A stretch of 56,517 nt of DNA. Origin: a virus. The notes under the pieces were generated by a model, which saw only the letters and a program-made list of their open reading frames with translations, made no database searches and had not been told where the DNA came from. Positions within the stretch are counted from its first letter, which is position 1. Each line of letters opens with the position of its first letter. Below are positions 16,816 to 34,200 of this stretch, piece after piece. The position numbers and the translations under genes are program-made. Location of the stretch: IMG/VR virus record IMGVR_UViG_3300033150_002389; one strand, given 5' to 3'.

Positions 16816-16920
16816 ATGCCTGGACAGTTATGGGCGGTGAATACCTTGGGTGGGTACATGTATTCACTCAACCTGAGTAAAAAGCTCAGGATGGCTGTTC
16901 AGCCTCTGATCAAGTTCCGT
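16816..16920 (+). CDS. major capsid protein, exon 1 (35 codons)
   Basis: AAGGAG 9 nt upstream of ATG; MPGQLWAVNTLGGYMYSLNLSKKLRMAVQPLIKFR then TAA at 16921. Confidence 0.6.
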
Positions 16921-17168
16921 TAAGAATGGCGGAAGTAAAACCCGCTCTGATTGACTTGGAAGCCCGGGCGCGGGCGACAAGGCGCAAGCAACGCCACCCT
17001 AAAGGAGGGCGTGTGGGCAGCGTGAACGACTGAGCGAGCGGGCACTGGAGAGAAAATACCAATATCCAGTGATGCGACAGTCTGAACCCCGGCATAACGC
17101 CTCAAGAGAAACCGGGGAGGCTACCCCAACAGGGCGTCCGCCCATGCGGTCATGAAAGTAACAGATTG
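16921..17168 (+). ncRNA. putative group I self-splicing intron (248 nt, no ORF)
   Basis: preceded by U, ends with G, length 2 mod 3; P1, P3, P7, P8 and P9-like helices found by eye in canonical order (details in findings). Confidence 0.6.
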
Positions 17169-18056
17169 CAGTTTTGCGATGTAAAAGATGCAACGCAACA
17201 GGGGCTGAAAAAAGGCGATACGTTCCACTGGAATGTATACAGTGACGTTTCGACACAGGGCACGAAGCTCACTGAAACGAAAACCATGCCCGAAACACAA
17301 TTCACGATCACCCAGGGAACCTTGACCATTGATGAGTATGGCAATAGCGTTCCCTACTCCGGGAAGCTTGATAATCTTTCCGAGCACCCGGTCACGGAGA
17401 TCATCAACAAGGTCCTGAAGAATGACGCAAAGAAGGCCTTTGACATAGCGGCACATGCCCAGTTCAATGCCTGCGTTCTTCGCGTCGTTCCGACGGCTGG
17501 GACGTCTACCACGGCGGTTACTCTGACCACGAACGGAACCGCGACCCTGACCAACGACGTTGCCCTGAAGAAGCAGCACATTGGGCTGGTAGTCGACACC
17601 ATGAAGGAGCGGAACATCCCGCCCTACATTGAGGACGACTACTACGTACTCGCATGGCCGTCCACGTTCCGGCAGCTCAAAACGGACCTTGAGGGCGTCT
17701 ATCAGTATGTGACGCAGGGCTTCCAGCTCATCATGAACGGTGAGATTGGCCGGTACGACAATTGCCGTTTCGTGGAGCAGACCCAGATTCCGAAGGGCGG
17801 AGCGGCGGATTCCACAACCTGGGACGCCGATACGAAAACGGCCGATGCCTGGAACAAGGCCAAGAGCGACTGGGCGTTCTTCTTTGGGGAGGATACGGTC
17901 GCCGAGGCAATTGCGGTTCCCGAGGAGATGCGCGGGAAAATCCCCACAGACTATGGCCGGTCGAAGGGGGTAGCGTGGTATTACCTCGGGGGCTTCGGGA
18001 TCGTCCACACAGCGGCCGCCCAGTGTCGAATCCTCAAATGGGATTCGGCATCATAG
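17169..18056 (+). CDS. major capsid protein, exon 2 (295 codons)
   Basis: ORF track 17166-18056; position after scaffold; splicing would give ...LIKFR-QFCDVKDAT... Confidence 0.6.
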   Translation, partial: QFCDVKDATQQGLKKGDTFHWNVYSDVSTQGTKLTETKTMPETQFTITQGTLTIDEYGNSVPYSGKLDNLSEHPVTEIINKVLKNDAKKAFDIAAHAQFNACVLRVVPTAGTSTTAVTLTTNGTATLTNDVALKKQHIGLVVDTMKERNIPPYIEDDYYVLAWPSTFRQLKTDLEGVYQYVTQGFQLIMNGEIGRYDNCRFVEQTQIPKGGAADSTTWDADTKTADAWNKAKSDWAFFFGEDTVAEAIAVPEEMRGKIPTDYGRSKGVAWYYLGGFGIVHTAAAQCRILKWDSAS

Positions 18057-18074: not shown

Positions 18075-18467
18075 ATGCCAAGTTTCTACGACGACGCACA
18101 ATACGGCGTGAGGGAGAGGCTTTATCTCACCGCACACCAGGCGGAGAAGACGCTGGCCGGGGATAAAACTCTCGTGAAGAGGTTCTACCCCAAGGGTCCG
18201 ATCAAGATCTTGAAGTTTGGGATCCAGCACATCGCGACCCAGGGCGGTACCGAGGTAACAGTTAACCTCAAAAGGAATTCGTCAACGCTGGCTACAGTTG
18301 TTGCCTCCACGGATTCAGCACCGTGGACCATAGCCAGCAAGTCGCTCGACAAGAACTGCGACGCGGGCTCCTATCTCACCGTGGACAGCGCAGGTACCGT
18401 TGCGACAGGATCTATAATCTGTTTCATCGAGTACAGGCGGCGCTACAGCACTAAGTGGGACGTCTAG
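18075..18467 (+). CDS. 130-aa virion-associated protein, paralog 1 (decoration-protein candidate)
   Basis: GGGGGTGAGG SD; about 85 percent aa identity to the next gene. Confidence 0.55.
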   Translation: MPSFYDDAQYGVRERLYLTAHQAEKTLAGDKTLVKRFYPKGPIKILKFGIQHIATQGGTEVTVNLKRNSSTLATVVASTDSAPWTIASKSLDKNCDAGSYLTVDSAGTVATGSIICFIEYRRRYSTKWDV

Positions 18468-18499
18468 CGACGCCATATTCTAAAACTTCGTAAACGAAT

Positions 18500-18526
18500 G
18501 GGGGCTTTCAGGAGCCCCCTTCACTT
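18500..18526 (+). terminator. hairpin GGGGGCT-ttcagg-AGCCCCC followed by T-rich tract; candidate partial terminator
   Basis: perfect 7-bp stem read directly; weak U-tract. Confidence 0.35.
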
Positions 18527-18539
18527 AAAGGGGTGACTT

Positions 18540-18932
18540 ATGCCCTCATTTTATAGTGATGCACAGTATGGCGTTGTTGAGCGCCTTCACTTCCATGCCT
18601 ATCAGGATTCGGTCCTCATAAACGGTGACAACACCCTGGTGAAGAGGTTCTATCCCAAAGGCCCAATCAAGATTTTGAAATTCGGGATCCAGCACCGGGC
18701 AACGCAAGGTGGCACCGAGGTCACGGTCAACTTAAAGCGCAACTCTTCAACGCTCGCAACGGTAGTGGCTTCGACGGACTCGGCGCCCTGGACCATTGCG
18801 AGTAAGTCCATTGACAAGAATGTGGACGCAGGGAGCTATTTGACCATCGACAGCGCCGGTACCGTTGCCAGCGGAAGCATAATTTGCTTCATTGATTACA
18901 GGCGCAGATACAGCTCGAAGTGGGATACCTGA
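18540..18932 (+). CDS. 130-aa virion-associated protein, paralog 2
   Basis: tandem paralog; protein conserved while synonymous sites have diverged. Confidence 0.55.
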   Translation: MPSFYSDAQYGVVERLHFHAYQDSVLINGDNTLVKRFYPKGPIKILKFGIQHRATQGGTEVTVNLKRNSSTLATVVASTDSAPWTIASKSIDKNVDAGSYLTIDSAGTVASGSIICFIDYRRRYSSKWDT

Positions 18933-18955: not shown

Positions 18956-19996
18956 ATGAAAATCGTCGAGATCGCGCGGCACTGTTGCATCAGAGTCCAA
19001 AAGCAAGCAATTCCGCTCATGGATAAGGGTTACGAGGTTCATTGCATCGCAAACAAGCCTCCAATGTTTGGCGACCGATATAAGACGCTTACCATCTACC
19101 AGCACAGGGCGCAGATGGAGGAGGCGATCAAGCTTCACGAGGATGCCGACATCTTCCACGCGCATAACGAGCCCTCGTGGTTCGTTACGATCATCAAGTC
19201 AATTTTCCCTGATAAGCCCGTTGTCCTTGATTGCCACGACAGCTTCCTTCTGAGGGTAGACCCGGATGCGCCTTACGACCCCGACAGACCTAAATGGAGC
19301 AAGGATGAGCGCGACAATATGGAGCTTGCGGATGCACTTGTCTTCGTCTCAGAGCCGATGGCGCAGATTGTCCGGGAGACCTACTGGCTAGAGCAACCTT
19401 ATGTAGTCCTCCCTTCGTATGTTCCAGAGGAGTTTTACAGGGTGGACGCCTGGAAGCTGCTCGGAGGAGTCTGCATGGAAGGAAGGGTTGATCTCCCCCA
19501 GGAAATCGAGCAGGGCAGGGAACACTGGTGCTTTTGGTATTGCGAATATACGGAGACCGCGCGGCAATTCCATGAGCGAGGAATCCCGTTCTATCTCTAC
19601 ACGCCTGGAGGGACGAAGGAGATACAGGAAACATACGGCCAGACAGCAACCTGGAAGGGATCGTATCCATTTGATCGGCTAATTCGTCAGATAGGCCGGC
19701 ATGAATACGGGTTGTGCGGGAATATCAGGCCTCACCCTGCCTGGCAGGCCGCTATGCCCAATAAGCTGTTTGAATACCTCGCCGCTGGCATACCCGTCAT
19801 CGCCCTAAATGCGAAGCACCCGGGCCAGTTCATTGAAGAGCACGGTTTCGGTATGGCGGTAGAAAACATGGGCCAGGTGAAAGAGCGCTGGATGGAGCAC
19901 CGGGATTTTAGGAAGAACATCGCTAGGCGCTCCAGAGACTGGGCTATGGAACGCCATATAGACAAACTCGAAGCGCTTTACAGGGAGCTTGTCTAA
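18956..19996 (+). CDS. GT-B fold glycosyltransferase (GT1/GT4-like)
   Basis: C-terminal PNKLFEYLAAGIPVIALNAKHPGQFIEEHGFG matches the E-x7-E family motif. Confidence 0.6.
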   Translation: MKIVEIARHCCIRVQKQAIPLMDKGYEVHCIANKPPMFGDRYKTLTIYQHRAQMEEAIKLHEDADIFHAHNEPSWFVTIIKSIFPDKPVVLDCHDSFLLRVDPDAPYDPDRPKWSKDERDNMELADALVFVSEPMAQIVRETYWLEQPYVVLPSYVPEEFYRVDAWKLLGGVCMEGRVDLPQEIEQGREHWCFWYCEYTETARQFHERGIPFYLYTPGGTKEIQETYGQTATWKGSYPFDRLIRQIGRHEYGLCGNIRPHPAWQAAMPNKLFEYLAAGIPVIALNAKHPGQFIEEHGFGMAVENMGQVKERWMEHRDFRKNIARRSRDWAMERHIDKLEALYRELV

Positions 19997-20619
19997 TGGG
20001 GCAGCATCCCTTGCAGCCAAAACGTACCCCAAGAGATGTCTGTTACTGGGACCTATTCGCGAAGACATGCGTCAATCGAGACACGTCTCATGTCTCATTC
20101 AATTCTCAGAAGGCCCGCACGATTTCGCATTACCTGCTGCGCTACTCTGTGGAAAACCTGAAGATACTGGAAATTGGCCTAGGCCGAGCCCTTATCGCTG
20201 GGACGTTGAAGAACCTCTGCTGGCAGTTCAATTATGTGGGTACGGACCTTTCTCACCGATTTTGTGACTGGGGAAAAAAGGCCTTTGGCCTGACGACCCT
20301 TCAGGCGCGGATAGATCGCCTGCCCTTTAGGGATGGGCTTTTTGATCACATACTTCTCTTCGACGTCCTCGAGCACGTGGACCCTGCAATCAGGAAGGTT
20401 GCCTACAGGGAAATAGGCAGAGTACTCAAGCTTCGTGAAGCCTATGTATTTATCAACAACCCTTGCGGCGGGCACTCCGGGCACCGGTCCTTTGATTGGG
20501 GATTTACCCAAACCGATATTGGCCTTATGGCCGATGCGCTTGGGGCGCTGATAAAGGACCTGCACCTTTACGAGTCCTCCCCTGGGGCGCTGTCTCAATT
20601 CGTGGTGCTTGCGAGGTAA
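19996..20619 (+). CDS. class I SAM-dependent methyltransferase
   Basis: motif I-like ILEIGLGRALIAG and motif II-like FDHILLFDVLEHV. Confidence 0.6.
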   Translation: MGQHPLQPKRTPRDVCYWDLFAKTCVNRDTSHVSFNSQKARTISHYLLRYSVENLKILEIGLGRALIAGTLKNLCWQFNYVGTDLSHRFCDWGKKAFGLTTLQARIDRLPFRDGLFDHILLFDVLEHVDPAIRKVAYREIGRVLKLREAYVFINNPCGGHSGHRSFDWGFTQTDIGLMADALGALIKDLHLYESSPGALSQFVVLAR

Positions 20620-20625
20620 GGGACG

Positions 20626-21546
20626 ATGAAGGCGCTATTACACTACCCTAAATGGGGGAATCGCTGGGCTCCGTACATTGAAACGGAACTCGGGTGCTTC
20701 TACGACCTCACTGTAACGGACTCCCTTGATGGCGAAACTCTCGGCGCCCAATCACAAGATGCGGATCTCCTTATCAGCATGTGGTGCAATGAGGCAACCT
20801 ATTTTTGGAGCCACTACTTCCCGGACAAGAAAATTATCAGCTACCTCCGGCGATATGAGCTCTGGACCCCCAATTTGATAGGCTCGATCAACTTTGATGC
20901 AGTAGATGCCATGATTTTTGTGAGTGAATATTACCGCTCCACATTCAATGATTTGCTGAAGGAAAACGCCCCACGTCGCCAATACGTCATCTACAACGGG
21001 GTTGATGTCAATGCAATTCCTTTCAGGCAAGAGACCCCAAAGAGCAAGAAAATAGCCTTTGTCTGCGCGGTAAGGGACGTGAAGAACTTTCCGCTTGCGT
21101 TCCAGATTCTGCTCAGTTTGCCGGAGGATTACACCATACACAATATTTGCTTCTCCGGTGATCCCCTACTCGTGCCCCAGCTTCTCTCCTATCGGGAGGT
21201 CTTGGGTCTGCAAGAGAGGTTTCGCTTTGAGGGCCGCGTAGAGCCTGACAAGGTGTATGACTGGTTGAGCGACAAAGGTTTTATTCTTTCAACGTCTATC
21301 AACGAAGGCAACCCCAACAACGTCATCGAGGCGATGGCAATGGGGATCAAGCCCGTAATTCATGCGTGGCCTGGGGCTACGGACCAGTTCGCTACGGAGT
21401 GGGTATTCAAAACGGTAGATGACGCGGTTAAGATGATTACCAACTCCGATTACGAGCCGGAACGTTACCGTAAATGGGTGGAAGATCACTACAGCCTCGA
21501 TAATTTCAGGAGAATCCACAAGGTCATAGAGGATGTCTGGCAATAG
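20626..21546 (+). CDS. GT-B fold glycosyltransferase (GT1/GT4-like)
   Basis: STSINEGNPNNVIEAMAMGIKPVI motif. Confidence 0.55.
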   Translation: MKALLHYPKWGNRWAPYIETELGCFYDLTVTDSLDGETLGAQSQDADLLISMWCNEATYFWSHYFPDKKIISYLRRYELWTPNLIGSINFDAVDAMIFVSEYYRSTFNDLLKENAPRRQYVIYNGVDVNAIPFRQETPKSKKIAFVCAVRDVKNFPLAFQILLSLPEDYTIHNICFSGDPLLVPQLLSYREVLGLQERFRFEGRVEPDKVYDWLSDKGFILSTSINEGNPNNVIEAMAMGIKPVIHAWPGATDQFATEWVFKTVDDAVKMITNSDYEPERYRKWVEDHYSLDNFRRIHKVIEDVWQ

Positions 21547-22239
21547 GTGAGGCTCATGCCACATACAATCTCAGTATCTTTAGGCCCGGAGTGGATCAAA
21601 AAGGCCATAGTGGTCAGTCATGAGCGGTCAGGGACACACTTTTTGATGAACACCCTAGCCGACAGTTTTCAATATGTCTCATATCCGTGGATTAACATGG
21701 ACATAGACCAGCCAATAAATTGGTGGGCGGCGGATAATCTGCTCTCGTTTCTGATGTCTATGAAAGGCGAGCCAGTCCTTAACATCGTAAAATCTCACCA
21801 TTCAGTAGAGTTTTTCCTCCCCGTGCTTGAGGAGGTTCTGGAAGAATTTCATCTCTTCTACATATACCGCGAACCTCAGGCCGTGATGGAAAGTTTGTGC
21901 AGGCACCTCAATGCCATCCCGTGGAACGCAGGACCGAAAGTGGAGAGCGGCGCTGCTTTGGCTGCTACTGAGCCCTCTGGTTCCCTTTTGAGATACCAGG
22001 CACGGCAGTACCCGAATATGCGGGAGCGCCTCTTAGCGCATCAAAAAGGCTGGAAAGAGGGTATTCCCGAGCACCTGAGAGGACAGATAATCTATGTGTC
22101 ATTCGAGGACCTGCGGGACCGCTTTGAGGCAACGGTGCGTTTCATCGGGCGACAGTTAAAAAGGGCCGTGCCCAAAGTAATAATCAAGCCAAGCCGGGAG
22201 GACAGGGTCGTTACTCCGGACGGCGTCTGGCTTCAATAA
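21547..22239 (+). CDS. sulfotransferase-fold protein (putative PAPS-dependent)
   Basis: 5'-PSB-like VVSHERSGTHFL and 3'-PB-like YREPQAVMES motifs. Confidence 0.45.
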   Translation: MRLMPHTISVSLGPEWIKKAIVVSHERSGTHFLMNTLADSFQYVSYPWINMDIDQPINWWAADNLLSFLMSMKGEPVLNIVKSHHSVEFFLPVLEEVLEEFHLFYIYREPQAVMESLCRHLNAIPWNAGPKVESGAALAATEPSGSLLRYQARQYPNMRERLLAHQKGWKEGIPEHLRGQIIYVSFEDLRDRFEATVRFIGRQLKRAVPKVIIKPSREDRVVTPDGVWLQ

Positions 22240-22257: not shown

Positions 22258-22455
22258 ATGGCAGATAAAGACAGCTTCAAGCATGTCGAGAACTCTGGAG
22301 TCAGTCAGCGGGATCTTGACAGAGGGTTCACGGATGCGTTGGTCACAGACGAGGAGCAGGGCCGGCGCGTCTACCCTGGAGGCTATGTCGGGGAGGACCC
22401 GGAAGAAATGCCAGCAGAAGGCTTTTTGGGGAGGGCTAAAGGATGGGAACGTTAA
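22258..22455 (+). CDS. hypothetical small protein
   Basis: ORF track. Confidence 0.3.
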   Translation: MADKDSFKHVENSGVSQRDLDRGFTDALVTDEEQGRRVYPGGYVGEDPEEMPAEGFLGRAKGWER

Positions 22456-22823
22456 ACAAATCAAGGCCATACGCGACGGTTTACGGCCAAGCGGGGCACG
22501 CCTATGAACAGGACGGCAAACTCTTTGACCATCATGGGAACGAAATAGGCGGCCCGACACCGGTTGGATCTCCCGGGCCGGTGGTTGAGCAGCGAGAACC
22601 GGCCAATGAGGCGGTAGCGCCTGCGCCTGAGGAACCACAGCTCAACGAATTGGATGCCGTCATTGAGGAGGCCAATGCTCAGGTGCCGGCACACGAGCTC
22701 ACTCGTAAAGAGATCATGGAAAAGCTTGATGCTCTTGACATCGCTTACGACAGGCGGGCCAGGAGGTCGGTCCTCCTTCGCAAACTACTTGAGGCTGAGG
22801 CAGATCAATTCAAGGAAGCATAG
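22443..22823 (+). CDS. hypothetical protein with Rho_N/SAP-like C-terminus
   Basis: HELTRKEIMEKLDALDIAYDRRARRSVLLRKL. Confidence 0.4.
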   Translation: MGTLNKSRPYATVYGQAGHAYEQDGKLFDHHGNEIGGPTPVGSPGPVVEQREPANEAVAPAPEEPQLNELDAVIEEANAQVPAHELTRKEIMEKLDALDIAYDRRARRSVLLRKLLEAEADQFKEA

Positions 22824-24311
22824 ATGCTTGATATCTTTAAGCCCCAGAACGTAAGAGCCCTTGAGGTCAAGTATGAGCTCGTGCCCTATACCAAAGGCGT
22901 GGTCCTTGACCTTGGCTGCGGCCCCTGGAAGACCTATCCCCACTTCATAGGCATAGACCTATGTCAGAACTGGCCTCCTCATATTCCGTGGAGGCCGGAT
23001 ATTGTGGCCGACTGCAGAAGCCTTTCCATGTTCGCTGGCCAGTCTGTGGATGCAGTTTTTTCGTCTCACCTCCTCAATGAGTTGGATGACCGGGCTGCCG
23101 TGCTCAAGGAGTGGTGGAGGGTGATAAAGCCGGGAGGACATCTCGTTCTCTACTTGCCTTATGGCGACCTCAGCGAGAAGGGCGTTGTCCATAGCATGGA
23201 AGCTATCCCTGGGGGATGGGATCTGGTTGTCAACGAAGTCAAGCCAGACCATAACTCGTTCCTGCAGGTCTACAGGAAGCGAAGCGATAAGGCCAAGCGC
23301 TACCCCTACCGGGATCTAAAGCCCGAGAAAATGTGCGCAGTGGTACGCTACGGTGGCGCCGGGGACATGATCCAGACATCAAGCGTTCTGCCAGAGCTCA
23401 AGAAACAGGGATACCACGTTACACTTTACACCTCAGAGGGGGGATACGAGGTCATAAAAGCGGACCCTCACGTTGACGAGTTCGTGGTCCAGCAAAGGGA
23501 GCAGGTGCCGAATAGGGAGCTTGGCGAATACTGGGGCGTGCTCAAAGGCAAATATACGAAATTCGTAAACCTCAGCGAGTCCGTGGAGGGCTCCCTCCTG
23601 GCTATGGAGGGAAGGACCATATTTGCGTGGCCACACGGAGCCCGGCATAAGGTCCTCAACTTCAACTACCTTGAAATCATGCACGACATTGCTGAAGTGC
23701 CCTTCCAAATTCACACAAGGTTCTACGCAACGAAGCAGGAAATAAAGTGGGCAAAGAGGCAGCGCAAAATGCCCTATAATCTACTGTGGGTTTTATCTGG
23801 CAGCTCGGTTCACAAAGCCTGGCCCTACATGGACCAGATCATTGCAAGGCTCCTGATTGAGCGAAACGACGTGGCCATAGTCCTCTCAGGCGACGAGCTA
23901 TCCCAAATGCTGGAAACTGGCTGGGAAAACGAGCCGAGGGTGATAAAGACCTCTGGCAAATGGTCTATGAGGCAGACTATGGCCTTTGGATGCCACGCCG
24001 CCGATCTGGTCATCGGACCGGAAACCGGAGTGCTCAACGCAGTTAGCATGCTTGACATACCGAAAATCATTTGCCTGAGTCACAGCTCAGTCGAAAACCT
24101 CACGAGAGACTGGGTCAACACGATAAGTTTAACCCCGGAGGGATGTACTTGTTACCCCTGCCACAGAATGCAGCACGGCTTTACCCACTGCTCAAGGGAT
24201 GAGGAGACAGGCGTCGCAGAGTGCCAAGCGAAGATCACCCCGGAAGCCGTGTGGGACGCAATTGAAAGGAGCTTTAAATGGCATCGTCCGGCTCTGCAGA
24301 TTATACGGTAA
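22824..24311 (+). CDS. bifunctional SAM methyltransferase / GT9 (heptosyltransferase-like) glycosyltransferase
   Basis: N-terminal VLDLGCGPWKT and LKPGGHLVL; C-terminal GSSVHKAWP and CHAADLVIGPETGVLNAV GT9-like motifs. Confidence 0.55.
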   Translation: MLDIFKPQNVRALEVKYELVPYTKGVVLDLGCGPWKTYPHFIGIDLCQNWPPHIPWRPDIVADCRSLSMFAGQSVDAVFSSHLLNELDDRAAVLKEWWRVIKPGGHLVLYLPYGDLSEKGVVHSMEAIPGGWDLVVNEVKPDHNSFLQVYRKRSDKAKRYPYRDLKPEKMCAVVRYGGAGDMIQTSSVLPELKKQGYHVTLYTSEGGYEVIKADPHVDEFVVQQREQVPNRELGEYWGVLKGKYTKFVNLSESVEGSLLAMEGRTIFAWPHGARHKVLNFNYLEIMHDIAEVPFQIHTRFYATKQEIKWAKRQRKMPYNLLWVLSGSSVHKAWPYMDQIIARLLIERNDVAIVLSGDELSQMLETGWENEPRVIKTSGKWSMRQTMAFGCHAADLVIGPETGVLNAVSMLDIPKIICLSHSSVENLTRDWVNTISLTPEGCTCYPCHRMQHGFTHCSRDEETGVAECQAKITPEAVWDAIERSFKWHRPALQIIR

Positions 24312-27503: not shown

Positions 27504-27814
27504 TGGACGCCCAGTCAATTGCAAATGTGTGCGGAGGGCTACTATTGGGAGGTTATGCAGCTTTGCGAGTAATAAATTTCTTTCGGTCGAGGTCGAGTAG
27601 TTCAGGCGCCAATTCAAGGCAGAACACCGCTAACCGCGCTCACTGCCCTGAGGACAGCTGCAAGGCGACGGTCATCAGCACAGCAGAGAGGGTCAGGACC
27701 CACGATGACCAAATCTCGAAGCTCTTTGAAACAACAAAGAAGATCTCAGAAGATGTAGCCTTTATGAGGGGCAAATTGAGCGGCGCGAAAATAGTTCGCT
27801 TCCAAGAGGAGTGA
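27503..27814 (+). CDS. small membrane-anchored protein (holin or spanin candidate)
   Basis: TGATG stop/start overlap; N-terminal hydrophobic helix IANVCGGLLLGGYAALRVINFF. Confidence 0.3.
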   Translation: MDAQSIANVCGGLLLGGYAALRVINFFRSRSSSSGANSRQNTANRAHCPEDSCKATVISTAERVRTHDDQISKLFETTKKISEDVAFMRGKLSGAKIVRFQEE

Positions 27815-28437
27815 CAGCAGTGAATGCTGAAAGCCACGACATCCTCAATGGCACCATGACAATTTATCGCACTTTGAAGGCCTACCGGAGGCAGAGGGCG
27901 ATTGAGGATCAGGATTGGGCTCTCATTCTGGCGTCCCTCAAGCGGATAGAGGGGGCATGTAAAACGTGCTACCGGAATGACTCTGCGAGCAAGGTAATCG
28001 CTTTGCGTCGGGTAGCCCTGCGGGTCGCTTGGAGCTTCCTTGGACGACCATACATTTGGGGCGGTGACGACCCATTGCAGGGATTTGACTGTTCTGGTTT
28101 CGTCATTGAATGTTTGAAATCCGCGGGTGTCCTTCCGCGCGTGGGTGATTGGACAGCGCAGGGGCTCTGGGATCGATTTGAGGATTGCAAAGTCCAGGAC
28201 GTCGAACCAGGCTGCCTCGTATTTTGGAAAAATGAAAAGGGCAGAGTAACCCATGTGGAAATCTGCATCGGCAACGGCCTCACCATCGGATCTAGCGGTG
28301 GCGGAAGTCACACGCTCACGGGTGCGGACGCCATCAAACAGAACGCGTACATCAAGGTACGCCCGATCCGCGATAGCCATAGCCTGAAGGGTTACCTGGA
28401 CCCGTTTCTGAAAGCAAAGGAAGGGGGTTTCAAATGA
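27811..28437 (+). CDS. NlpC/P60-family peptidoglycan endopeptidase
   Basis: GFDCSGFVIECL catalytic Cys motif and downstream VTHVEI His. Confidence 0.6.
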   Translation: MTAVNAESHDILNGTMTIYRTLKAYRRQRAIEDQDWALILASLKRIEGACKTCYRNDSASKVIALRRVALRVAWSFLGRPYIWGGDDPLQGFDCSGFVIECLKSAGVLPRVGDWTAQGLWDRFEDCKVQDVEPGCLVFWKNEKGRVTHVEICIGNGLTIGSSGGGSHTLTGADAIKQNAYIKVRPIRDSHSLKGYLDPFLKAKEGGFK

Positions 28438-29060: not shown

Positions 29061-29702
29061 ATGTTAGGTGCAATTTTAGGAGTAGCTGCGGCCACATTGG
29101 GCGGAGCCTTAATCAGCTCCGGTGGGGCATCTAAGGCTGCCAGTACGGCGGCTGCCGCCACAGACCGCGCCGCAGAAGTACAACGCGAAATGTTTTACAC
29201 CAGCAGGGAGGACCTGGCTCCCTGGCGCGAAGCCGGGAAACGAGCCCTGAGTGCTCTCGAAGGAAGAATTGAGGCTGGCCCGGGTGAATTTGTGCCGGAG
29301 GAGGAACCCGGATTCAAGTTCGGCTACAGGGAGTTCGTCGAAAAGCCGCTTATGAGGCGAGCCTCGGCGCGAGGCGGTGTTGATAGTGGCAGGACCCTCA
29401 AGGAGCTCACTCGTTACGCAGAAGACTACGCCTCCACTCGGTACGACAATTTCCTCAACCGCTGGTACAAAAGCCTTACCCCATATCAGAGCCTTGCTGG
29501 TGTCGGTCAGACATCGGCTGCTCAAATGGGCGAGAACGCTCTAGTCGCTGGCGGGAACATTGGAAACGCCCTGATCACAGGCGGCCAGGCAAGGGCTTCC
29601 GGCTACGCTAATCAAGCCAATATCTGGGGAGGAACCGCAGCTGGCATAGGGCAAAACCTTCTTGATTACGCGATTCTAAAGAAAGCGGGAATACTAAATT
29701 GA
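29061..29702 (+). CDS. internal virion protein (putative)
   Basis: Gly/Ala-rich; position. Confidence 0.4.
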   Translation: MLGAILGVAAATLGGALISSGGASKAASTAAAATDRAAEVQREMFYTSREDLAPWREAGKRALSALEGRIEAGPGEFVPEEEPGFKFGYREFVEKPLMRRASARGGVDSGRTLKELTRYAEDYASTRYDNFLNRWYKSLTPYQSLAGVGQTSAAQMGENALVAGGNIGNALITGGQARASGYANQANIWGGTAAGIGQNLLDYAILKKAGILN

Positions 29703-29709
29703 CGGGGGA

Positions 29710-31242
29710 ATGAAAATGGCTAATTTTTTAGTGAATCCGCCGCCTGTCCCCTCAATAGGCAAGTCAATGCAAAACGCTTTAAGCCTGAAATACCTCCAGA
29801 CGAGGCAGGCATTGGCGGAGCGAGATTTGAGGGACGTAGGCAGAGCAGAGGAATACGAGAAGGCGAAACGAAGTCTGGATGCCTTTAACGCTTACATTGA
29901 CACCTATGAGAAAACCGGGAACAAGGACCTTGCTGACAAGGCCTTCAAGGCTTTGGAGCCAGATTCAGACCCTCCAGCTGAAACGTGGCGTATAGATAAA
30001 AACGACCGCCACTACACCTTTGCTGATGGCACCGAGGTAATTGGGGACCCCCAAGACGTCAAGACCGTGATGGAGGAACTCAGGCAGTATTTGCCCCAAA
30101 TTCACCAGAACCCGGAATACCAAGCCAGATTCTTTGATTTCGCAGCTGCACATAATGTCGGTATCAAGTTCGGTAAAGCTGGGGAAATTGAGCCCTTATA
30201 CGACACGGCTGAGCGGAGGGTTTATAACCTTCCCAAGGCGGAGGCTCGGGCGAAGAAAGCAGAAGATCCGGTGCGGTACCAGACCTATGATGAACGAATT
30301 GGAAAGAGGAAGAAGTGGGAGCCCTCCACCAAGGAAGAGTTGCTTGACCTTGAGGAAGCCAAGCAGAGAATCAGGGCAAAATACGAGCAGCCTGGATTGA
30401 CCCCGGCGCAAAAGAGCAGGCTGAACTTGCTCGAAGAGAAGGCAAAAGCAGAGATTGAAATAATACAGGCGTACCGCATGGGAGAAAAGGATCTTCAGGG
30501 CAACCCTGTTGTGCCTCCAGAACAGGCAGCGGCCGCAACTCGACGCCTCGAAGAAACCATGAAACAGATAGACCAAATCCGCGGCCAAAGACCAACCAAC
30601 GCTTTAGCTCAACCTACAGGAATAGCCCCTCGTGGAGCGCCTATAACGCCATCAGCATTACCGGAGGCTCCAAGAGCAACGGCACCTGCGGCGCCGACCC
30701 AACCGACTGCTGGCTCATTGTTTTCCAAGCTTGTCGCTATCCATGCCGAGCTACTCAAACAGGGCGTTGACCCTATGAGTCTTCCCAAGGTTCGGGCTGC
30801 AACAGAAGCTTACTTCAAGCAGAACCCGGAAGCGCAAGAGCGTTTTAGGGATGCCCTTAATGCCCAGCAGATTGAGGGTCCCCCTCCGGTTTCGCCAGAA
30901 GTCAACGCCATACGCCAGGAACTGCGCAAGGAGGCAACCCAGAACCTGACAATTGCTGAGGCGGCAAAAGAGATTGGGAAACGGCTTGTATCGGGCATGA
31001 GTCCCGAGCGCGCTGGCGCAGTAGCGGCAGAGTACCTCCCACTTTTACCGGAAGATGAAAAGGTGGTGGACTTCGACTCATTCAAGAAGTTCTTCAAGAA
31101 GGTGCGGAAGGCGGATAAGTGGACTGAGCAATACCTCCGGGAGGCCTTCAAGACCTATTGGAAAGGCTTGAATTGGGCTGGCAATGCCCTCTTGGGCATA
31201 AGGATTCCTGGAACAGCCGGACTCAGAAGCGAGGAGAAGTAA
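29710..31242 (+). CDS. internal virion / ejection protein (putative)
   Basis: 510 aa; position before the giant protein. Confidence 0.4.
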   Translation: MKMANFLVNPPPVPSIGKSMQNALSLKYLQTRQALAERDLRDVGRAEEYEKAKRSLDAFNAYIDTYEKTGNKDLADKAFKALEPDSDPPAETWRIDKNDRHYTFADGTEVIGDPQDVKTVMEELRQYLPQIHQNPEYQARFFDFAAAHNVGIKFGKAGEIEPLYDTAERRVYNLPKAEARAKKAEDPVRYQTYDERIGKRKKWEPSTKEELLDLEEAKQRIRAKYEQPGLTPAQKSRLNLLEEKAKAEIEIIQAYRMGEKDLQGNPVVPPEQAAAATRRLEETMKQIDQIRGQRPTNALAQPTGIAPRGAPITPSALPEAPRATAPAAPTQPTAGSLFSKLVAIHAELLKQGVDPMSLPKVRAATEAYFKQNPEAQERFRDALNAQQIEGPPPVSPEVNAIRQELRKEATQNLTIAEAAKEIGKRLVSGMSPERAGAVAAEYLPLLPEDEKVVDFDSFKKFFKKVRKADKWTEQYLREAFKTYWKGLNWAGNALLGIRIPGTAGLRSEEK

Positions 31243-31244
31243 AA

Positions 31245-34200
31245 TTGCCCAACCTCAATGCCCTCATTCAAAGCGCCGAACGGGAAGCACAAGCCGTTAC
31301 GGGCGTAAAAGCCAACGCCCTTACTACTGCAGCTAGCCCCTCAACCGAAGAAAAAGACTACCAAAATTACCTCCTTCAATACGCAGTAACAAACCCTGAA
31401 AATCCTGCCCACCATTACGACTATCGCTCTGCCTACAGGGCTGGCGTGAAACCGATTATGTGGGACGATCTACCCAAAGAGGTTAAAGAGGAGGATATCC
31501 AACAAGCAATTACAGGGGAACGGACTGGCCGCCCCATGTCGAGAGAAGAAGCAATCCAGTTTTACTCTGGTCATTACATGTGGCCCGACCAATTCAAGCT
31601 TCCCGGACACCCTGTACCGCCGAAAAAAGAGGCGATCAATGCCCTCATTGCGCAGGCAGCAGAAGAGGCCCAAGCCACATTGCAAGGCACGGAAACCGAG
31701 TATCATCCGTGGGGTGCCGCCAAGATGACAGTCTATGACGCGCTGTCTGGGCTTTCTGCGCTGCCGCGCACCATAGGCATGGGAGAGACCGCCCGCAATG
31801 TGGCTGAGTTCTACGATAAGCGGGCTGAAGCGGATCCGGATATCCGGGAATTCAAGAAGGCGTCCGAGCAAGGGCGGGAAAGTATATGGACTGAGGCACT
31901 GGGTTCCGCTGGCCCGACAGCCATGGCTCTGGGCATGAGATTCATCCCCTATGTGGGGTTTCCACTCGCAGCCTCTTATTTCTGGCACCTGAATAAAGAC
32001 GAGGTGAAGGACCTTGCGCTAGCAAAGGGTGCCGACGAAAAAACAGCGGAGAGGATTTCCTGGATAGGCGGCACCGTCAACTCTGCACTTGATGTCCTTG
32101 GCCTGGAGGCGATTGCTGGGAAAATGCCATTCCTTCGCGGGCCAGTGAAGAGCGTGAAGCACCGCCTGGTAGGTGCTGCAGTCCGCCTAATGGCCAGTAC
32201 AGGTGGCGAAGGTCTCACAGAGGGAATGCAGGAAGTCGTCGGCGAGCTATCGTCCGAATATGCGGCGAGCAAAGATGTCAGAGAATTTCTCGATCGAGTC
32301 AGCCAAAAGCAGTGGTGGGACAAAGCACTTGCCAAAGCTGAAAAGTCACTGAAAGTCGGCTCCATGATGGGGGCCGTCTTCGGTGGTGCTGCATCGGTGG
32401 CGGAAACCAGGCTTCAAAAGCGCCTTAAACCTGAGAAGGCAACCAAGCCCCTAGAGGCCCCGAAAGACCTGAGCGAGCTCATAGAAGAGGCTGAAAAAGA
32501 GTATACCGAAATCTTGCAACAGGAGGTGCCCCGTGATCGTAAAGAGGAAGAAAGGATATTACGTCGTGAGCGAGCACAAAGGCAAGGACGGAAAGAGGAG
32601 GAGGCTCGGCGGCCCGTACCCCACGAGGGAAGAGGCCGAGGAGAGGCTGGAGCAGGTGGAGTATTTCAAGGCCCGCAGCCGACACGCCCAACGGAAGAAG
32701 CGGTCCGCGTCGAGGAGGAATATCAGAAAGGAGACAGAGTAGAAACGCCGGAGGGCGCCGGCGAGGTCCTCAGGGTCGCGCCAGCGGAAACATCTGGGGA
32801 GGAAAAGCTGACAGTGAAGCTGGACGAGGGAGAAACTGTCGAGGTCTCTCCCGCCGAAGAGAAGGTGGAAAAGCCGTCCCCCCCACCGGAGGAAGTCGAC
32901 GAGGCGGCACAGGAAGCCGAGCCTGCCCCTACCGAGGCGCAGAAGGAAGCTGGCAATTACAAGAAGGGTCATATCAATATACAGGGGATGGATATCTCCA
33001 TTGAGAATCCAAAAGGTTCGATAAGGGAGGGCGTAGACAAGCAAGGGAAAAAGTGGAAATCAAAGGTCGCGGCCCACTATGGCTACATCAGGCGCACAGA
33101 GGGCAAAGACGGCGATCAGGTAGATGTCTTTATCGGCCCGCGCCCTGAAACCAACAGGGTATTCGTGATAGACCAGGTTGACCCAGAGACCGGCCTGTTT
33201 GACGAACACAAAGCGATGGTCGGTTTCCCTACGAAGAAGATGGCCAAGACGGCCTACCTCCGCAGCTACACCAAGGATTGGAAGGGCCTGGGGGCGATCA
33301 CGGAAATGACCGTCAATCAATTCAAAGATTGGATTAGGACGGGAGACTCGTCGGCGCCCCTGGGTCTTAAAGAAAAGCGCAAGGTAGCAAAGGACGCTAC
33401 ACGGGGGGCTGCCGGCAACCTGCTTATAAAGACCTCAGATCAGACGATCTACGAATCCAGGCAACCCGTTCACGCCCTGATGCTCGGCGAATTTGGCGTA
33501 AAGCCAGAAGATGTTATTGACACTGGCTTGATTGATAAAACCGGGAAAGAGATGTGGGCCGGCAGCAAAGAGATCAAGCCGCTAACTGAAGAAGTCGCCG
33601 CAGCTGTCCGAGAGCAGAGGAAGCGGGAGCAGCAGAAAAAGAGGGCGCAGCGCGCAGCTAAAGCCAAGACCTTTCGGCAATGGGTCGCCCTCACAGGGGG
33701 CATTAATCCCCAGGACAAGACCTGGCGTGGCGAAATCCGAGACATGCGCTATACAATGAATGCCGCCGGCAAAAAAGTTCCAGCGCCGGGCTGGCCAGTT
33801 GGCATTTGGAATCGCAAGGCAAGAGGCGTGGATGAGCGGACCCATGACGCTATTGAGGCCGGGTGGCTTCCCACAGCGGCTACAGAAGACGACTTCATGC
33901 AGGCCCTAGAGCAAAACATTACGACCAAAATAACAAAGGCTGGTGCCCAGGAAGATGTTGACACCGTCGTAAAAGAAGAGGAAGATAAGTTAGAGCAAGA
34001 GTACGAGAGGGAGCTGGCCCGCCTTAAGGTTAAAATCAAGGAGGAATGGGATGCCGGAGGACAAGAATACACACCCGCCGATCTCGAAGGAGCTGCGCGA
34101 GAGCTTGAAGCCTACCTTGCGGCGAATGAACGTGACGAGATTAAAGCTGCGAGTATTGAAGAACTTGAGGAAATCTGGCGTCTTTTCGACGAAGCAGTAA

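What the first reader, a model, noticed from the sequence alone, without database searches (positions are those of the whole stretch)
18075..18932. Tandem paralogous 130-aa genes after the capsid gene, conserved in protein but diverged at synonymous sites
The two proteins are about 85 percent identical, differing mainly in residues 6-30. The DNA differs at many third positions, so this is an old duplication with both copies under purifying selection. A perfect 7-bp hairpin lies between them. They sit where decoration or head-fibre proteins occur, directly before a glycosylation cluster.
Basis: partly seen in the sequence, partly recalled or inferred. Interest (0 to 1): 0.5.

Follow-up and report, generated by a model that had tools for sequence, protein, structure and literature searches.

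The report
Duplicated jelly-roll capsid accessory genes
Two adjacent 130-residue genes right after a phage's major capsid gene are ancient, selectively maintained copies of an unnamed jelly-roll protein, most likely a capsid decoration protein, which in related uncultured phages is always inherited together with a glycosyltransferase cluster.

Summary
ORFs 18075-18467 (A) and 18540-18932 (B) are 83.8% identical in protein and 69% in DNA. Of their differences, 80 of 121 are at third codon positions. Synonymous sites are fully randomised and dN/dS is about 0.05 or lower.

Both copies belong to a small metagenome-only family ("FAM") with no Pfam or PHROG match. AlphaFold predicts the same eight-strand jelly roll for both. 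It resembles C1q/TNF domains, CBM6/36 modules and phage cement proteins.

In about 45 related loci the gene order is always MCP, FAM, GT4 glycosyltransferase. Among 52 loci found through the capsid protein alone, 50 lack both FAM and the glycosyltransferases, 2 have both, and none has only one. Copy number in relatives is 1, 2 or 3. One close relative keeps a 26-codon relic of a B-type copy.

A GC-rich terminator-like hairpin follows FAM in most relatives. In this window it sits between A and B.

Best reading: these are old paralogs of an abundant capsid decoration or cement protein, possibly the protein that carries or displays the glycan, with A made in bulk and B at a lower dose. The function is inferred, not shown.

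Side finding: the capsid gene is split by a 245-nt group-I-like intron.

The parts
18075..18467 (+). FAM copy A (130 aa), jelly-roll protein. First gene after the MCP gene, upstream of the hairpin.
   Evidence: ORF and translation. Family profile E = 5.5e-71. AF2 pLDDT 82.4, pTM 0.75, 8-strand beta sandwich. GC3 = 0.715, the same as the MCP gene.
18500..18519 (+). GC-rich stem-loop GGGGGCTTTCAGGAGCCCCC followed by TTCACTTA. Terminator-like or attenuator-like element between A and B.
   Evidence: A comparable perfect GC-rich hairpin follows the last FAM copy in 22/38 distinct relatives. The same test finds 2/42 after MCP, 0/31 after GT4, 0/60 after portal and 0/21 after scaffold. Many of the hairpins carry T-runs.
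18540..18932 (+). FAM copy B (130 aa), paralog of A, downstream of the hairpin. No hairpin follows it.
   Evidence: Profile E = 3e-69. AF2 pLDDT 82.5, pTM 0.75, same secondary structure as A. GC3 = 0.662, similar to the portal and GT4 genes. N-terminal signature shared with P0015, P0011 and P0014.
16816..16920 (+). Context: major capsid protein exon 1 (35 codons, MPGQLWAV...PLIKFR).
   Evidence: Aligns to the N-termini of intact MCPs in L135 and Vibrio phage 219E41.1. Uninterrupted homologs carry the exon 1 and exon 2 regions in one ORF.
17166..18056 (+). Context: major capsid protein exon 2 (HK97-type; Phage_capsid_3 / phrog_1357).
   Evidence: The profile matches begin at about position 50-60, which means the N-terminus is encoded elsewhere, namely in exon 1.
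18956..19996 (+). Context: GT4-family glycosyltransferase, first gene of the glycosylation cluster. Always the next gene after FAM in relatives.
   Evidence: Pfam Glyco_transf_4 E = 6.8e-13. GT4 lies directly downstream of FAM in 42/42 FAM-seeded loci.

Best explanation
Copies A and B are ancient tandem paralogs of an uncharacterised 130-190-aa jelly-roll protein family, called FAM here. In a clade of uncultured short-tailed phages with an SU10-type portal and adaptor, FAM is always encoded immediately 3' of the major capsid gene.

The most likely function is an abundant external capsid accessory protein, that is, a decoration or cement protein. FAM would be transcribed with the scaffold and capsid genes, in a unit that normally ends at a GC-rich terminator-like hairpin just after FAM.

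In this phage the hairpin lies after copy A. I therefore infer that A is made in bulk with the capsid protein and that B, which depends on read-through, is made at a lower dose.

The jelly-roll body (residues 32-130, 92% identical) is kept nearly the same in both copies. The N-terminal segment (residues 6-31, 50% identical) is the family's hypervariable region and carries paralog-type signatures shared with orthologs in other phages. I infer that it sets which capsid site or partner each paralog binds.

FAM and the downstream GT4/GT1 glycosyltransferases are gained and lost together. FAM is therefore probably the protein that carries or presents the glycan made by that cluster.

Shown: paralogy, age of the duplication, purifying selection, predicted fold, synteny, hairpin conservation, FAM-GT4 co-occurrence.

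Inferred: virion location, dosage difference, role of the N-terminal segment, glycosylation.
For: Paralogy and selection.

The duplication is older than the split between phage lineages:
- A against its L135 ortholog keeps a synonymous signal, while A against B keeps none.
- L135 has a 26-codon relic, MSAFYDDARYGIVERFY|NDSSWDPTD, of a B-type copy.
- All arrays except those in L033 and L034 fall in one clade with bootstrap 100.
- Three-copy arrays occur in L002-L005.

Fold:
- AF2 jelly roll for both copies.
- Foldseek matches to C1q/TNF domains and to phage fibre knobs.

Position: the order MCP, FAM, GT4 holds in all 27 viral loci and all 21 metagenome loci.

In relatives without FAM, the gene after MCP is often a distantly homologous 120-135-aa family, FAM-X. 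hhalign gives probability 88%, P = 3e-6; shuffled controls give 0.2% or less. A small protein of this superfamily after MCP is therefore a stable part of the head module.

Hairpin enrichment after FAM.

FAM-GT4 coupling: 50 loci with neither, 2 with both, 0 discordant, and 42/42 adjacent. There are at least 4 presence/absence changes on the MCP tree, and GT4 tracks FAM at every one.

Precedents:
- The A4 gp25 cement protein is an N-anchor plus a CBM jelly roll that trimerises on 3-fold axes (PMC12002296).
- The BPP-1 jellyroll cement protein (PMC3863775).
- Mycobacteriophage capsid glycosylation, as summarised in PMC12619734.
Against: - There is no virion proteomics or structure for any member.
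- The jelly-roll fold is generic. Carbohydrate-binding modules, TNF/C1q domains, tail-fibre knobs and small plant-virus coats score as well as the cement proteins do.
- No sequence-level link to any known decoration protein was found.
- The positional analogue in SU10 (gp10, between MCP and adaptor) was not seen on the cryo-EM head (PMC9509320).
- The window's hairpin has only a weak T-tract (TTCACTTA), so termination efficiency is unknown.
- Bootstrap support for assigning A and B to orthologous types is low (31-71%).
- The FAM-GT4 coupling could partly reflect linked inheritance of neighbouring genes.
Confidence: 0.55

Rival explanations
1. FAM is a capsid- or neck-anchored adhesin (a head-fibre knob). 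It would be a C1q/TNF- or CBM-like trimer that binds host surface glycans for reversible adsorption. The paralogs would provide two binding specificities. The glycosyltransferase cluster would be functionally unrelated, or would modify something else.
Against: The part that differs between the paralogs is the N-terminal segment, not the jelly-roll body where ligand sites of CBMs and C1q domains lie. The body is strongly conserved across phages from very different environments, which is unusual for receptor-binding domains. This reading does not explain the strict co-inheritance with GT4.
Confidence: 0.15
2. FAM is not a virion protein. It is a non-enzymatic component of the glycosylation pathway, for example a lectin-like chaperone or a substrate adaptor for the GT4/GT1 enzymes, whose real target is the major capsid protein.
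For: FAM and GT4/GT1 co-occur and are co-absent without exception. The fold resembles carbohydrate-binding modules.
Against: A terminator-like hairpin separates FAM from the GT genes and groups FAM with the MCP gene. GC3 of copy A equals that of the MCP gene. Relatives without any GT4/GT1 still encode a distantly homologous protein, FAM-X, in the same slot. That argues for a head-structural role independent of glycosylation.
Confidence: 0.12
3. Copy B was not made by duplication in place. It was acquired by recombination from a related phage, or only its N-terminal segment was swapped in. On this view the pair is a mosaic rather than an old resident pair.
For: The N-terminal 35 residues of B are closest to P0015 from another contig (77%) and only 63% identical to A. 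The C-terminal 95 residues of A and B are each other's closest relatives (92%, bootstrap 75). The order of paralog types differs between contigs: L002 has A-B-C, while L136 has a C-like copy and then a B-like copy.
Against: A and B share almost no unique derived residues. Their high C-terminal identity can be explained by both being slowly evolving copies that stay close to the family consensus (reading of the alignment). No nucleotide tract of elevated identity exists. A B-type relic in L135 and B-type copies in L002 show that the two-type array is ancestral in this clade.
Confidence: 0.1
4. One copy is functionally redundant and on its way to loss. The pair has no specialised roles.
For: Copy number fluctuates between 1 and 3 among close relatives, and L135 shows a deleted copy.
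Against: Synonymous sites are fully randomised, yet B keeps an intact ORF, a strong Shine-Dalgarno sequence, all invariant residues, the same predicted fold and a dN of only 0.17. A redundant copy would have decayed long before synonymous saturation.
Confidence: 0.05

Closest known systems
Jelly-roll cement proteins of podophage and siphophage capsids: BPP-1 cementing protein (PDB 3j4u_H), Helicobacter phage KHP40 gp16 (7dou), cyanophage Pam1 cement protein (7eel_H), epsilon15 gp10
   Different: No detectable sequence similarity. FAM has the signature R-x-Y-P-K-G-P and A-T-Q-G-G-T-E motifs. It occurs in 1-3 tandem paralogs and is always followed by a glycosyltransferase cluster. Capsid binding is untested.
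Cyanopodophage A4 auxiliary cement protein gp25 (PMC12002296)
   Same: Architecture of a short N-terminal anchor plus a CBM-type jelly roll. A4 also uses two cement proteins with different sites and stoichiometries.
   Different: The two A4 cement proteins are unrelated folds, not paralogs. The A4 study does not describe a glycosyltransferase cluster linked to them. Trimerisation of FAM is only suggested by its resemblance to C1q/TNF domains.
Phage SU10 gp10 (Kuravirus), between MCP gp9 and adaptor gp11 (PMC9509320)
   Same: Same slot in a head module that shares the SU10-type portal and adaptor families. A small predicted beta-sandwich minor capsid protein.
   Different: SU10 gp10 is predicted to be Ig-like, not a jelly roll. 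It was not seen on the SU10 head. It is single-copy and has no adjacent glycosyltransferases.
C1q/TNF-like globular domains, including the BclA C-terminal domain and phage fibre knobs
   Same: These are the best Foldseek matches (E = 7e-5, TM about 0.57-0.59). The only, very weak, sequence-profile hit is to a C1q-related factor (E = 0.2).
   Different: FAM is a stand-alone domain without a collagen or fibre stalk. Neither the trimeric state nor the 10-strand topology is established.
Mycobacteriophage virion glycosylation (Freeman et al. 2023, as summarised in PMC12619734)
   Same: The summary reports glycans on virion proteins of Mycobacterium phages. FAM likewise sits next to glycosyltransferase genes inside the structural module of its phage.
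   Different: In mycobacteriophages the capsid and tail-tube subunits themselves are modified at their C-termini. Here a dedicated small accessory protein co-varies with the GT genes. The hosts are unknown and the phages are short-tailed (podophages). No glycan has been demonstrated.

Membership tests
Jelly-roll capsid cement/decoration proteins (BPP-1 CP, KHP40 gp16, Pam1 type) | Single jelly-roll beta-sandwich domain of about 120-140 residues | tested here: met
Jelly-roll capsid cement/decoration proteins (BPP-1 CP, KHP40 gp16, Pam1 type) | Gene adjacent to the major capsid gene in the head module | tested here: met
   FAM immediately follows MCP in the window and in all 48 related loci.
Jelly-roll capsid cement/decoration proteins (BPP-1 CP, KHP40 gp16, Pam1 type) | Detectable sequence homology to a characterised member | tested here: not met
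   No Pfam, PHROG, PDB-sequence or INPHARED tblastn match.
Jelly-roll capsid cement/decoration proteins (BPP-1 CP, KHP40 gp16, Pam1 type) | Bound to the outer capsid surface at 2-fold or 3-fold positions in defined stoichiometry | not testable with these tools
   Needs virion proteomics, cryo-EM or multimer modelling with the capsid protein.
C1q/TNF superfamily | Jelly-roll topology superposable on gC1q/TNF domains | tested here: inconclusive
C1q/TNF superfamily | Sequence-profile membership | tested here: not met
   Best PDB profile hit is C1q-related factor at E = 0.2. No Pfam C1q or TNF hit.
C1q/TNF superfamily | Obligate homo- or heterotrimer | not testable with these tools
   Only single-chain prediction was available.
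Carbohydrate-binding modules CBM6/CBM36 | Beta-sandwich fold of the CBM6/36 type | tested here: inconclusive
Carbohydrate-binding modules CBM6/CBM36 | Conserved calcium- and ligand-binding residues | not tested
   Model coordinates were not inspected residue by residue.
Retained tandem paralogs under purifying selection | Common origin, intact ORFs, dN/dS well below 1 | tested here: met
   83.8% aa identity. Omega about 0.04-0.06 with saturated dS. All invariant residues are kept in both copies.
Retained tandem paralogs under purifying selection | Duplication predates the divergence of related genomes (orthologous paralog types) | tested here: inconclusive
   Supported by the B-type relic in L135, by residual synonymous signal in A against its L135 ortholog but not in A against B, and by N-terminal signatures. 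Bootstrap support for the type clades is weak (31-71%).
Rho-independent (intrinsic) terminator, for the 18500-18519 hairpin | GC-rich stem-loop | tested here: met
   7-8 bp stem with 6 G-C pairs; centroid structure at -15.8 kcal/mol.
Rho-independent (intrinsic) terminator, for the 18500-18519 hairpin | U-tract immediately 3' of the stem | tested here: inconclusive
   TTCACTTA has 4 T in 8. The consensus scan did not call it on the + strand. Many homologous positions in relatives have clear T6-7 runs.
Rho-independent (intrinsic) terminator, for the 18500-18519 hairpin | Conserved position at the end of a transcription unit | tested here: met
   22/38 after FAM, against 0-2 after four other head genes.
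Phage virion protein glycosylation module | Glycosyltransferase genes embedded in the structural gene block and co-inherited with a structural protein | tested here: met
   GT4, MTase, GT1 and a sulfotransferase-like gene lie at 18956-22239. FAM and GT4/GT1 co-occur with no discordant locus.
Phage virion protein glycosylation module | Glycan covalently attached to a virion protein | not testable with these tools
   Needs glycoproteomics.

The most novel reading that the evidence does not exclude
FAM is the dedicated glycan acceptor of a portable capsid glycoprotein-coat module, made of an acceptor decoration protein plus GT4/GT1 and tailoring enzymes. Uncultured podophages gain and lose this module as a unit. 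The tandem paralogs (A, B and in some phages C) would be site-specialised or dose-specialised versions. They could form hetero-oligomers or occupy different quasi-equivalent capsid positions, giving a patterned sugar coat on the phage head.
Probability: 0.25. Interest if true: 0.7.

Novelty: new member of a known kind. Interest (0 to 1): 0.4.

Why it matters
The result defines an unannotated protein family that occupies the decoration-protein slot in a widespread clade of environmental podophages. About 70 clusters at 50% identity were found among 1.8 billion proteins, and none is named.

The family is tied, by presence and absence, to a glycosyltransferase cluster. That makes FAM a concrete candidate for a glycosylated or glycan-presenting capsid protein outside the actinobacteriophages, and the idea is directly testable by co-expressing MCP, scaffold, FAM and the GT genes.

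It is also a clean example of tandem paralogs kept in a small phage genome long enough for complete synonymous randomisation. Copy-number turnover (1, 2 or 3 copies, plus a deletion relic) is visible among relatives.

For annotation, the practical message is that both genes are real, both are constrained, and they should be labelled as putative capsid decoration paralogs.

Tried and rejected
Searches that found nothing:
- Pfam and PHROG scans of A, B, 35 diverse family members and FAM-X representatives gave nothing significant.
- tblastn of A and of GT4 against 50,697 phage records gave no match.
- The PDB sequence search with the family profile gave only E = 0.2 to a C1q-related factor. The search with the spliced MCP gave nothing.
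- The scan of 185,579 GTDB species genomes found no relatives, so FAM is not carried on prophages in that set.
- The look-up of P0001's contig found nothing on record.
- Freeman et al. 2023 is not held in the library and is cited only second-hand.

Hypotheses tested and rejected:
- Recent gene conversion between A and B. Rejected because there is no tract of elevated identity and nt identity equals the random-synonymous expectation.
- Active selection for nucleotide divergence to avoid recombination between the repeats. Not supported, because observed identity is not below the random expectation in any of six arrays.
- Concerted evolution of the C-terminal body. A and B are sisters for residues 36-130 (bootstrap 75). 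On inspection they share almost no unique derived residues, so I do not claim it.
- The 122-aa ORF after the Vibrio phage 219E41.1 MCP as a FAM homolog. The profile match is not significant.

The Rfam search for a group I intron in the MCP insert found no hit at the gathering threshold or at E <= 10. The intron call therefore rests on the exon junction, the U/G splice-site rule and the P1/IGS pairing.

Technical failures: two scripts timed out (Biopython bootstrap and ML dN/dS for many pairs). They were replaced by faster code.

Full report
OBSERVATION

Two ATG-initiated 130-codon ORFs lie at 18075-18467 (copy A) and 18540-18932 (copy B) on the + strand. Each is preceded by a GGGGTGA-type Shine-Dalgarno sequence.

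The proteins are 109/130 identical (83.8%) and the DNA is 69.2% identical. Differences by codon position are 25/16/80. Thirteen of the 21 amino-acid differences fall in residues 6-31, which are 50% identical. Residues 32-130 are 92% identical.

Synonymous sites are saturated:
- pS = 0.81.
- Four-fold sites at identical residues match in 16/49 cases, against a chance value of 0.28.
- Overall nt identity (0.695) is indistinguishable from what is obtained when every codon is redrawn from the genome's synonymous usage (0.682 +/- 0.016).
- The longest identical run is 14 nt.

dN is 0.14-0.17. Omega is about 0.04-0.06 where it can be estimated.

A 7-bp perfect stem (8 bp with a U.G pair), GGGGGCT...AGCCCCC, lies at 18500-18519 between the genes. 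The major capsid gene ends at 18056 and a GT4 glycosyltransferase starts at 18956.

WHAT THE PROTEIN IS

Neither copy matches any Pfam or PHROG family. tblastn against 50,697 deposited phage genomes finds nothing.

The 5.8-billion-protein collection holds only 36 relatives, all metagenomic and none named. An exhaustive profile search of 1.84 billion cluster representatives finds 70. No relative occurs in 185,579 bacterial or archaeal species genomes.

AlphaFold2 with the family alignment gives the same confident model for both copies: pLDDT 82.4 and 82.5, pTM 0.75. It is an eight-strand beta sandwich with a short N-terminal helix and strand.

Fold searches classify it as a jelly roll:
- Foldseek's best PDB hits are C1q-like globular domains and the tail-fibre knob of Agrobacterium phage 7-7-1.
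- BFVD hits are the distal domains of collagen-repeat and fibre proteins.

The fold is generic and cannot by itself assign a function.

GENOMIC CONTEXT IN RELATIVES

I fetched 27 viral-contig loci and 21 metagenome loci that encode a relative at 24-85% identity.

In every one the order is MCP, then FAM, then GT4 glycosyltransferase. Usually a methyltransferase, GT1, a sulfotransferase-like gene and a methyltransferase-fusion protein follow, then an SU10-type adaptor and a Phage_stabilise-type (Pfam PF11134) protein.

The head module has an SU10-type portal. The nearest cultured phages are Vibrio crassostreae podophages, with MCP 51% identical. They lack both FAM and GT4.

When loci are collected through the capsid protein instead, 80 loci with MCP 65-83% identical are obtained. 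Of those with at least 2.5 kb downstream, 50 have neither FAM nor GT4/GT1, 2 have both, and none is discordant. In FAM-seeded loci, GT4 is the next gene in 42/42.

On an MCP tree, FAM presence changes at least four times and GT4 follows each time.

In 31 of the 50 FAM-less loci, the gene after MCP (or a gene close behind it) belongs to another 120-135-aa family, FAM-X. This family is a distant homolog of FAM: hhalign probability 88%, P = 3e-6 over 117 columns, with reversed and shuffled controls at 0.2% or less.

So a small protein of this superfamily is a stable component of the head module. The FAM branch, recognisable by R-x-Y-P-K-G-P and A-T-Q-G-G-T-E motifs, is the form that travels with the glycosyltransferases.

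THE HAIRPIN

A GC-rich stem-loop, frequently followed by a run of six or seven T, lies just downstream of FAM in most relatives.

With a strict criterion (perfect stem of at least 6 bp with at least 5 G-C pairs, within 80 nt), the counts are:
- 22/38 distinct loci after the last FAM copy;
- 2/42 after MCP;
- 0/31 after GT4;
- 0/60 after portal;
- 0/21 after scaffold.

This is the signature of a terminator or attenuator closing the scaffold-MCP-FAM transcription unit. It groups FAM with the abundantly made capsid proteins rather than with the enzymes downstream.

In the window the element sits after copy A, and copy B has none. The same arrangement occurs in L033. L138 also has a hairpin after its first copy, but its second copy is followed by one too. 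In L002-L005 and L034 the element follows the last copy.

GC3 of copy A equals that of MCP (0.715). GC3 of copy B (0.662) resembles that of the portal and GT4 genes. I infer, but cannot show, that A is produced in bulk and B at a lower, read-through level.

HISTORY OF THE DUPLICATION

Most family members are single-copy. Arrays of two copies (window, L033, L034, L138) or three copies (L002-L005) occur only among close relatives.

All array members except those of L033 and L034 fall in one clade with bootstrap 100.

Within that clade the N-terminal 35 residues sort the copies into types:
- A groups with P0002 and with L004 copy 1.
- B groups with P0015 and with L002 copy 2.
- A third type carries a C-terminal extension.

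Bootstrap support for these types is weak.

Three further observations show that the duplication predates the divergence of these phages:
- A and its ortholog in L135 (85% aa identity) retain synonymous similarity above every simulation (0.762 against 0.706). A against B retains none.
- In L135 the intergenic region after the single full copy contains a 26-codon ORF, MSAFYDDARYGIVERFYNDSSWDPTD. This is the N-terminus fused to the C-terminus of a B-type copy, that is, an internal-deletion relic. The hairpin and GT4 follow it.
- All six within-array pairs examined are at the random-synonymous floor.

The higher C-terminal identity of A to B (92%) than to orthologs (78-86%) at first suggested concerted evolution. 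The two copies share almost no unique derived residues and show no nucleotide tract of identity, so I attribute the pattern to slow evolution of both copies rather than to gene conversion.

MECHANISM

Shown:
- Ancient paralogy.
- Strong purifying selection on both copies.
- Identical predicted jelly-roll fold.
- Invariant position after MCP.
- A position-conserved terminator-like element.
- Co-inheritance with GT4/GT1.

Inferred:
- FAM is an external capsid accessory (decoration or cement) protein.
- The conserved body forms the oligomer or the exposed face.
- The hypervariable N-terminal segment, which also carries the family's indels, determines the binding site or partner. This would parallel the N-terminal anchors of lambda gpD and A4 gp25 (PMC12002296).
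- A and B differ in dosage.
- FAM carries or presents the glycan made by the adjacent cluster. The analogy is glycosylated mycobacteriophage capsid and tail-tube subunits (summarised in PMC12619734).

A caution comes from SU10 itself. The small beta-sandwich protein gp10 in the same slot was not seen on the head (PMC9509320).

COMPARISON AND NOVELTY

FAM works like the jelly-roll cement proteins of BPP-1, KHP40 and Pam1, and like the N-anchor-plus-CBM auxiliary cement protein of A4. It is not a sequence member of any of them.

Membership in the C1q/TNF or CBM6/36 families is not established. I file it as a new member, in effect a new family, of a known kind.

The features that go beyond the known kind are the 1-3-copy paralog arrays and the strict coupling to a glycosyltransferase cluster. 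The most novel reading that is not excluded is a portable module of acceptor protein plus glycosyltransferases that coats the capsid. I give it a probability of about 0.25.

SIDE FINDINGS

The capsid gene is interrupted:
- Exon 1 (16816-16920) ends ...PLIKFR. Exon 2 begins QFCDV... at 17166/17169.
- Intact homologs read straight through this junction (...KFRQHCDV in L135...RFRQFTDL in Vibrio phage 219E41.1).
- The 245-nt insert follows a U and ends in G.
- Its GCGGAA (16929-16934) pairs with the exon end UUCCGU, including the U.G wobble. This forms a P1-like helix in the MFE fold, which has z = -2.3.
- Rfam does not recognise the insert.

Relatives carry other inserts in the MCP gene, some with an HNH gene.

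The window also encodes a 3015-aa protein with InPase and RadC/JAB domains, an NlpC/P60 protein, a P22 gp7-like ejection protein and a beta-helix tailspike-like protein.

Noticed in passing
window 16816-18056 (insert 16921-17165): The major capsid gene is split. A 35-codon exon 1 with its own RBS is followed by a 245-nt insert and then exon 2. The junction (FR|QF) matches uninterrupted homologs exactly. The insert follows a U and ends in G. An internal GCGGAA pairs with the exon end UUCCGU, forming a group-I-like P1 helix. Rfam gives no hit.
   Followed up: partly
L002 7316-9206, L003, L004/L005/L032, L011 1266-3919, L021 255-1768, L035 1413-3008: MCP genes of several relatives are also interrupted, at other positions. 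In L002-L005 the insert carries an HNH endonuclease ORF on the opposite strand. The capsid gene seems to be a recurrent target of mobile introns or homing elements in this clade.
   Followed up: no
L135 2069-2149 (between FAM at 1666-2058 and GT4 at 2197): A 26-codon relic ORF, MSAFYDDARYGIVERFYNDSSWDPTD*, lies here. It is the N-terminus fused to the C-terminus of a B-type FAM copy, so a second copy was lost by internal deletion. A GGGGGGCTCCGGCCCCCC hairpin follows it.
   Followed up: yes
downstream of FAM in L002 (10840-10876), L009, L013, L026, L044 and about 20 other loci; window 18500-18519: A terminator-like GC-rich hairpin, often with a T6-7 tail, is conserved in position but not in sequence right after FAM. 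It is almost absent after the MCP, GT4, portal and scaffold genes.
   Followed up: yes
L054 2238-2642, L063 5463-5837, L067 6946-7329, L080 7264-7653, L123 6874-7269 and about 30 other loci: Relatives that lack FAM and the GT4/GT1 genes encode another unannotated 120-135-aa family ('FAM-X', MsYDdP... N-terminus) in the slot after MCP. It is a distant homolog of FAM by profile-profile comparison (probability 88%), and has no Pfam or PHROG match.
   Followed up: partly
window 22824-24311 and homologs in nearly all related loci: The 495-aa protein with an N-terminal methyltransferase domain, together with the small protein before it (22443-22823), is kept even in relatives that lack FAM, GT4 and GT1. 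In some relatives (L092, L123) only the C-terminal portion of about 357 aa is present as a separate gene. It may be a core virion-modification enzyme of the clade.
   Followed up: no
window 31158-40205: A 3015-aa ORF carries an inorganic-pyrophosphatase-like (InPase) domain and a RadC-like JAB domain. This looks like a polyvalent, probably injected, protein. Nearby genes include an NlpC/P60 protein (27811-28437), a P22 gp7-like ejection protein (29061-29702) and a beta-helix tailspike-like protein (40308-42875).
   Followed up: no
window 18075-18932: GC3 of copy A (0.715) equals that of the capsid gene. GC3 of copy B (0.662) matches the portal and GT4 genes. This is a weak hint that A and B are expressed at different levels, consistent with the hairpin lying between them.
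   Followed up: partly
L136 1-111 and 172-564: In this contig a copy with a C-type C-terminal extension (...KWNVLRNY*) precedes a B-type copy (P0015), which is followed by GT4. L002 has the order A-B-C. The order of paralog types therefore differs between phages.
   Followed up: no
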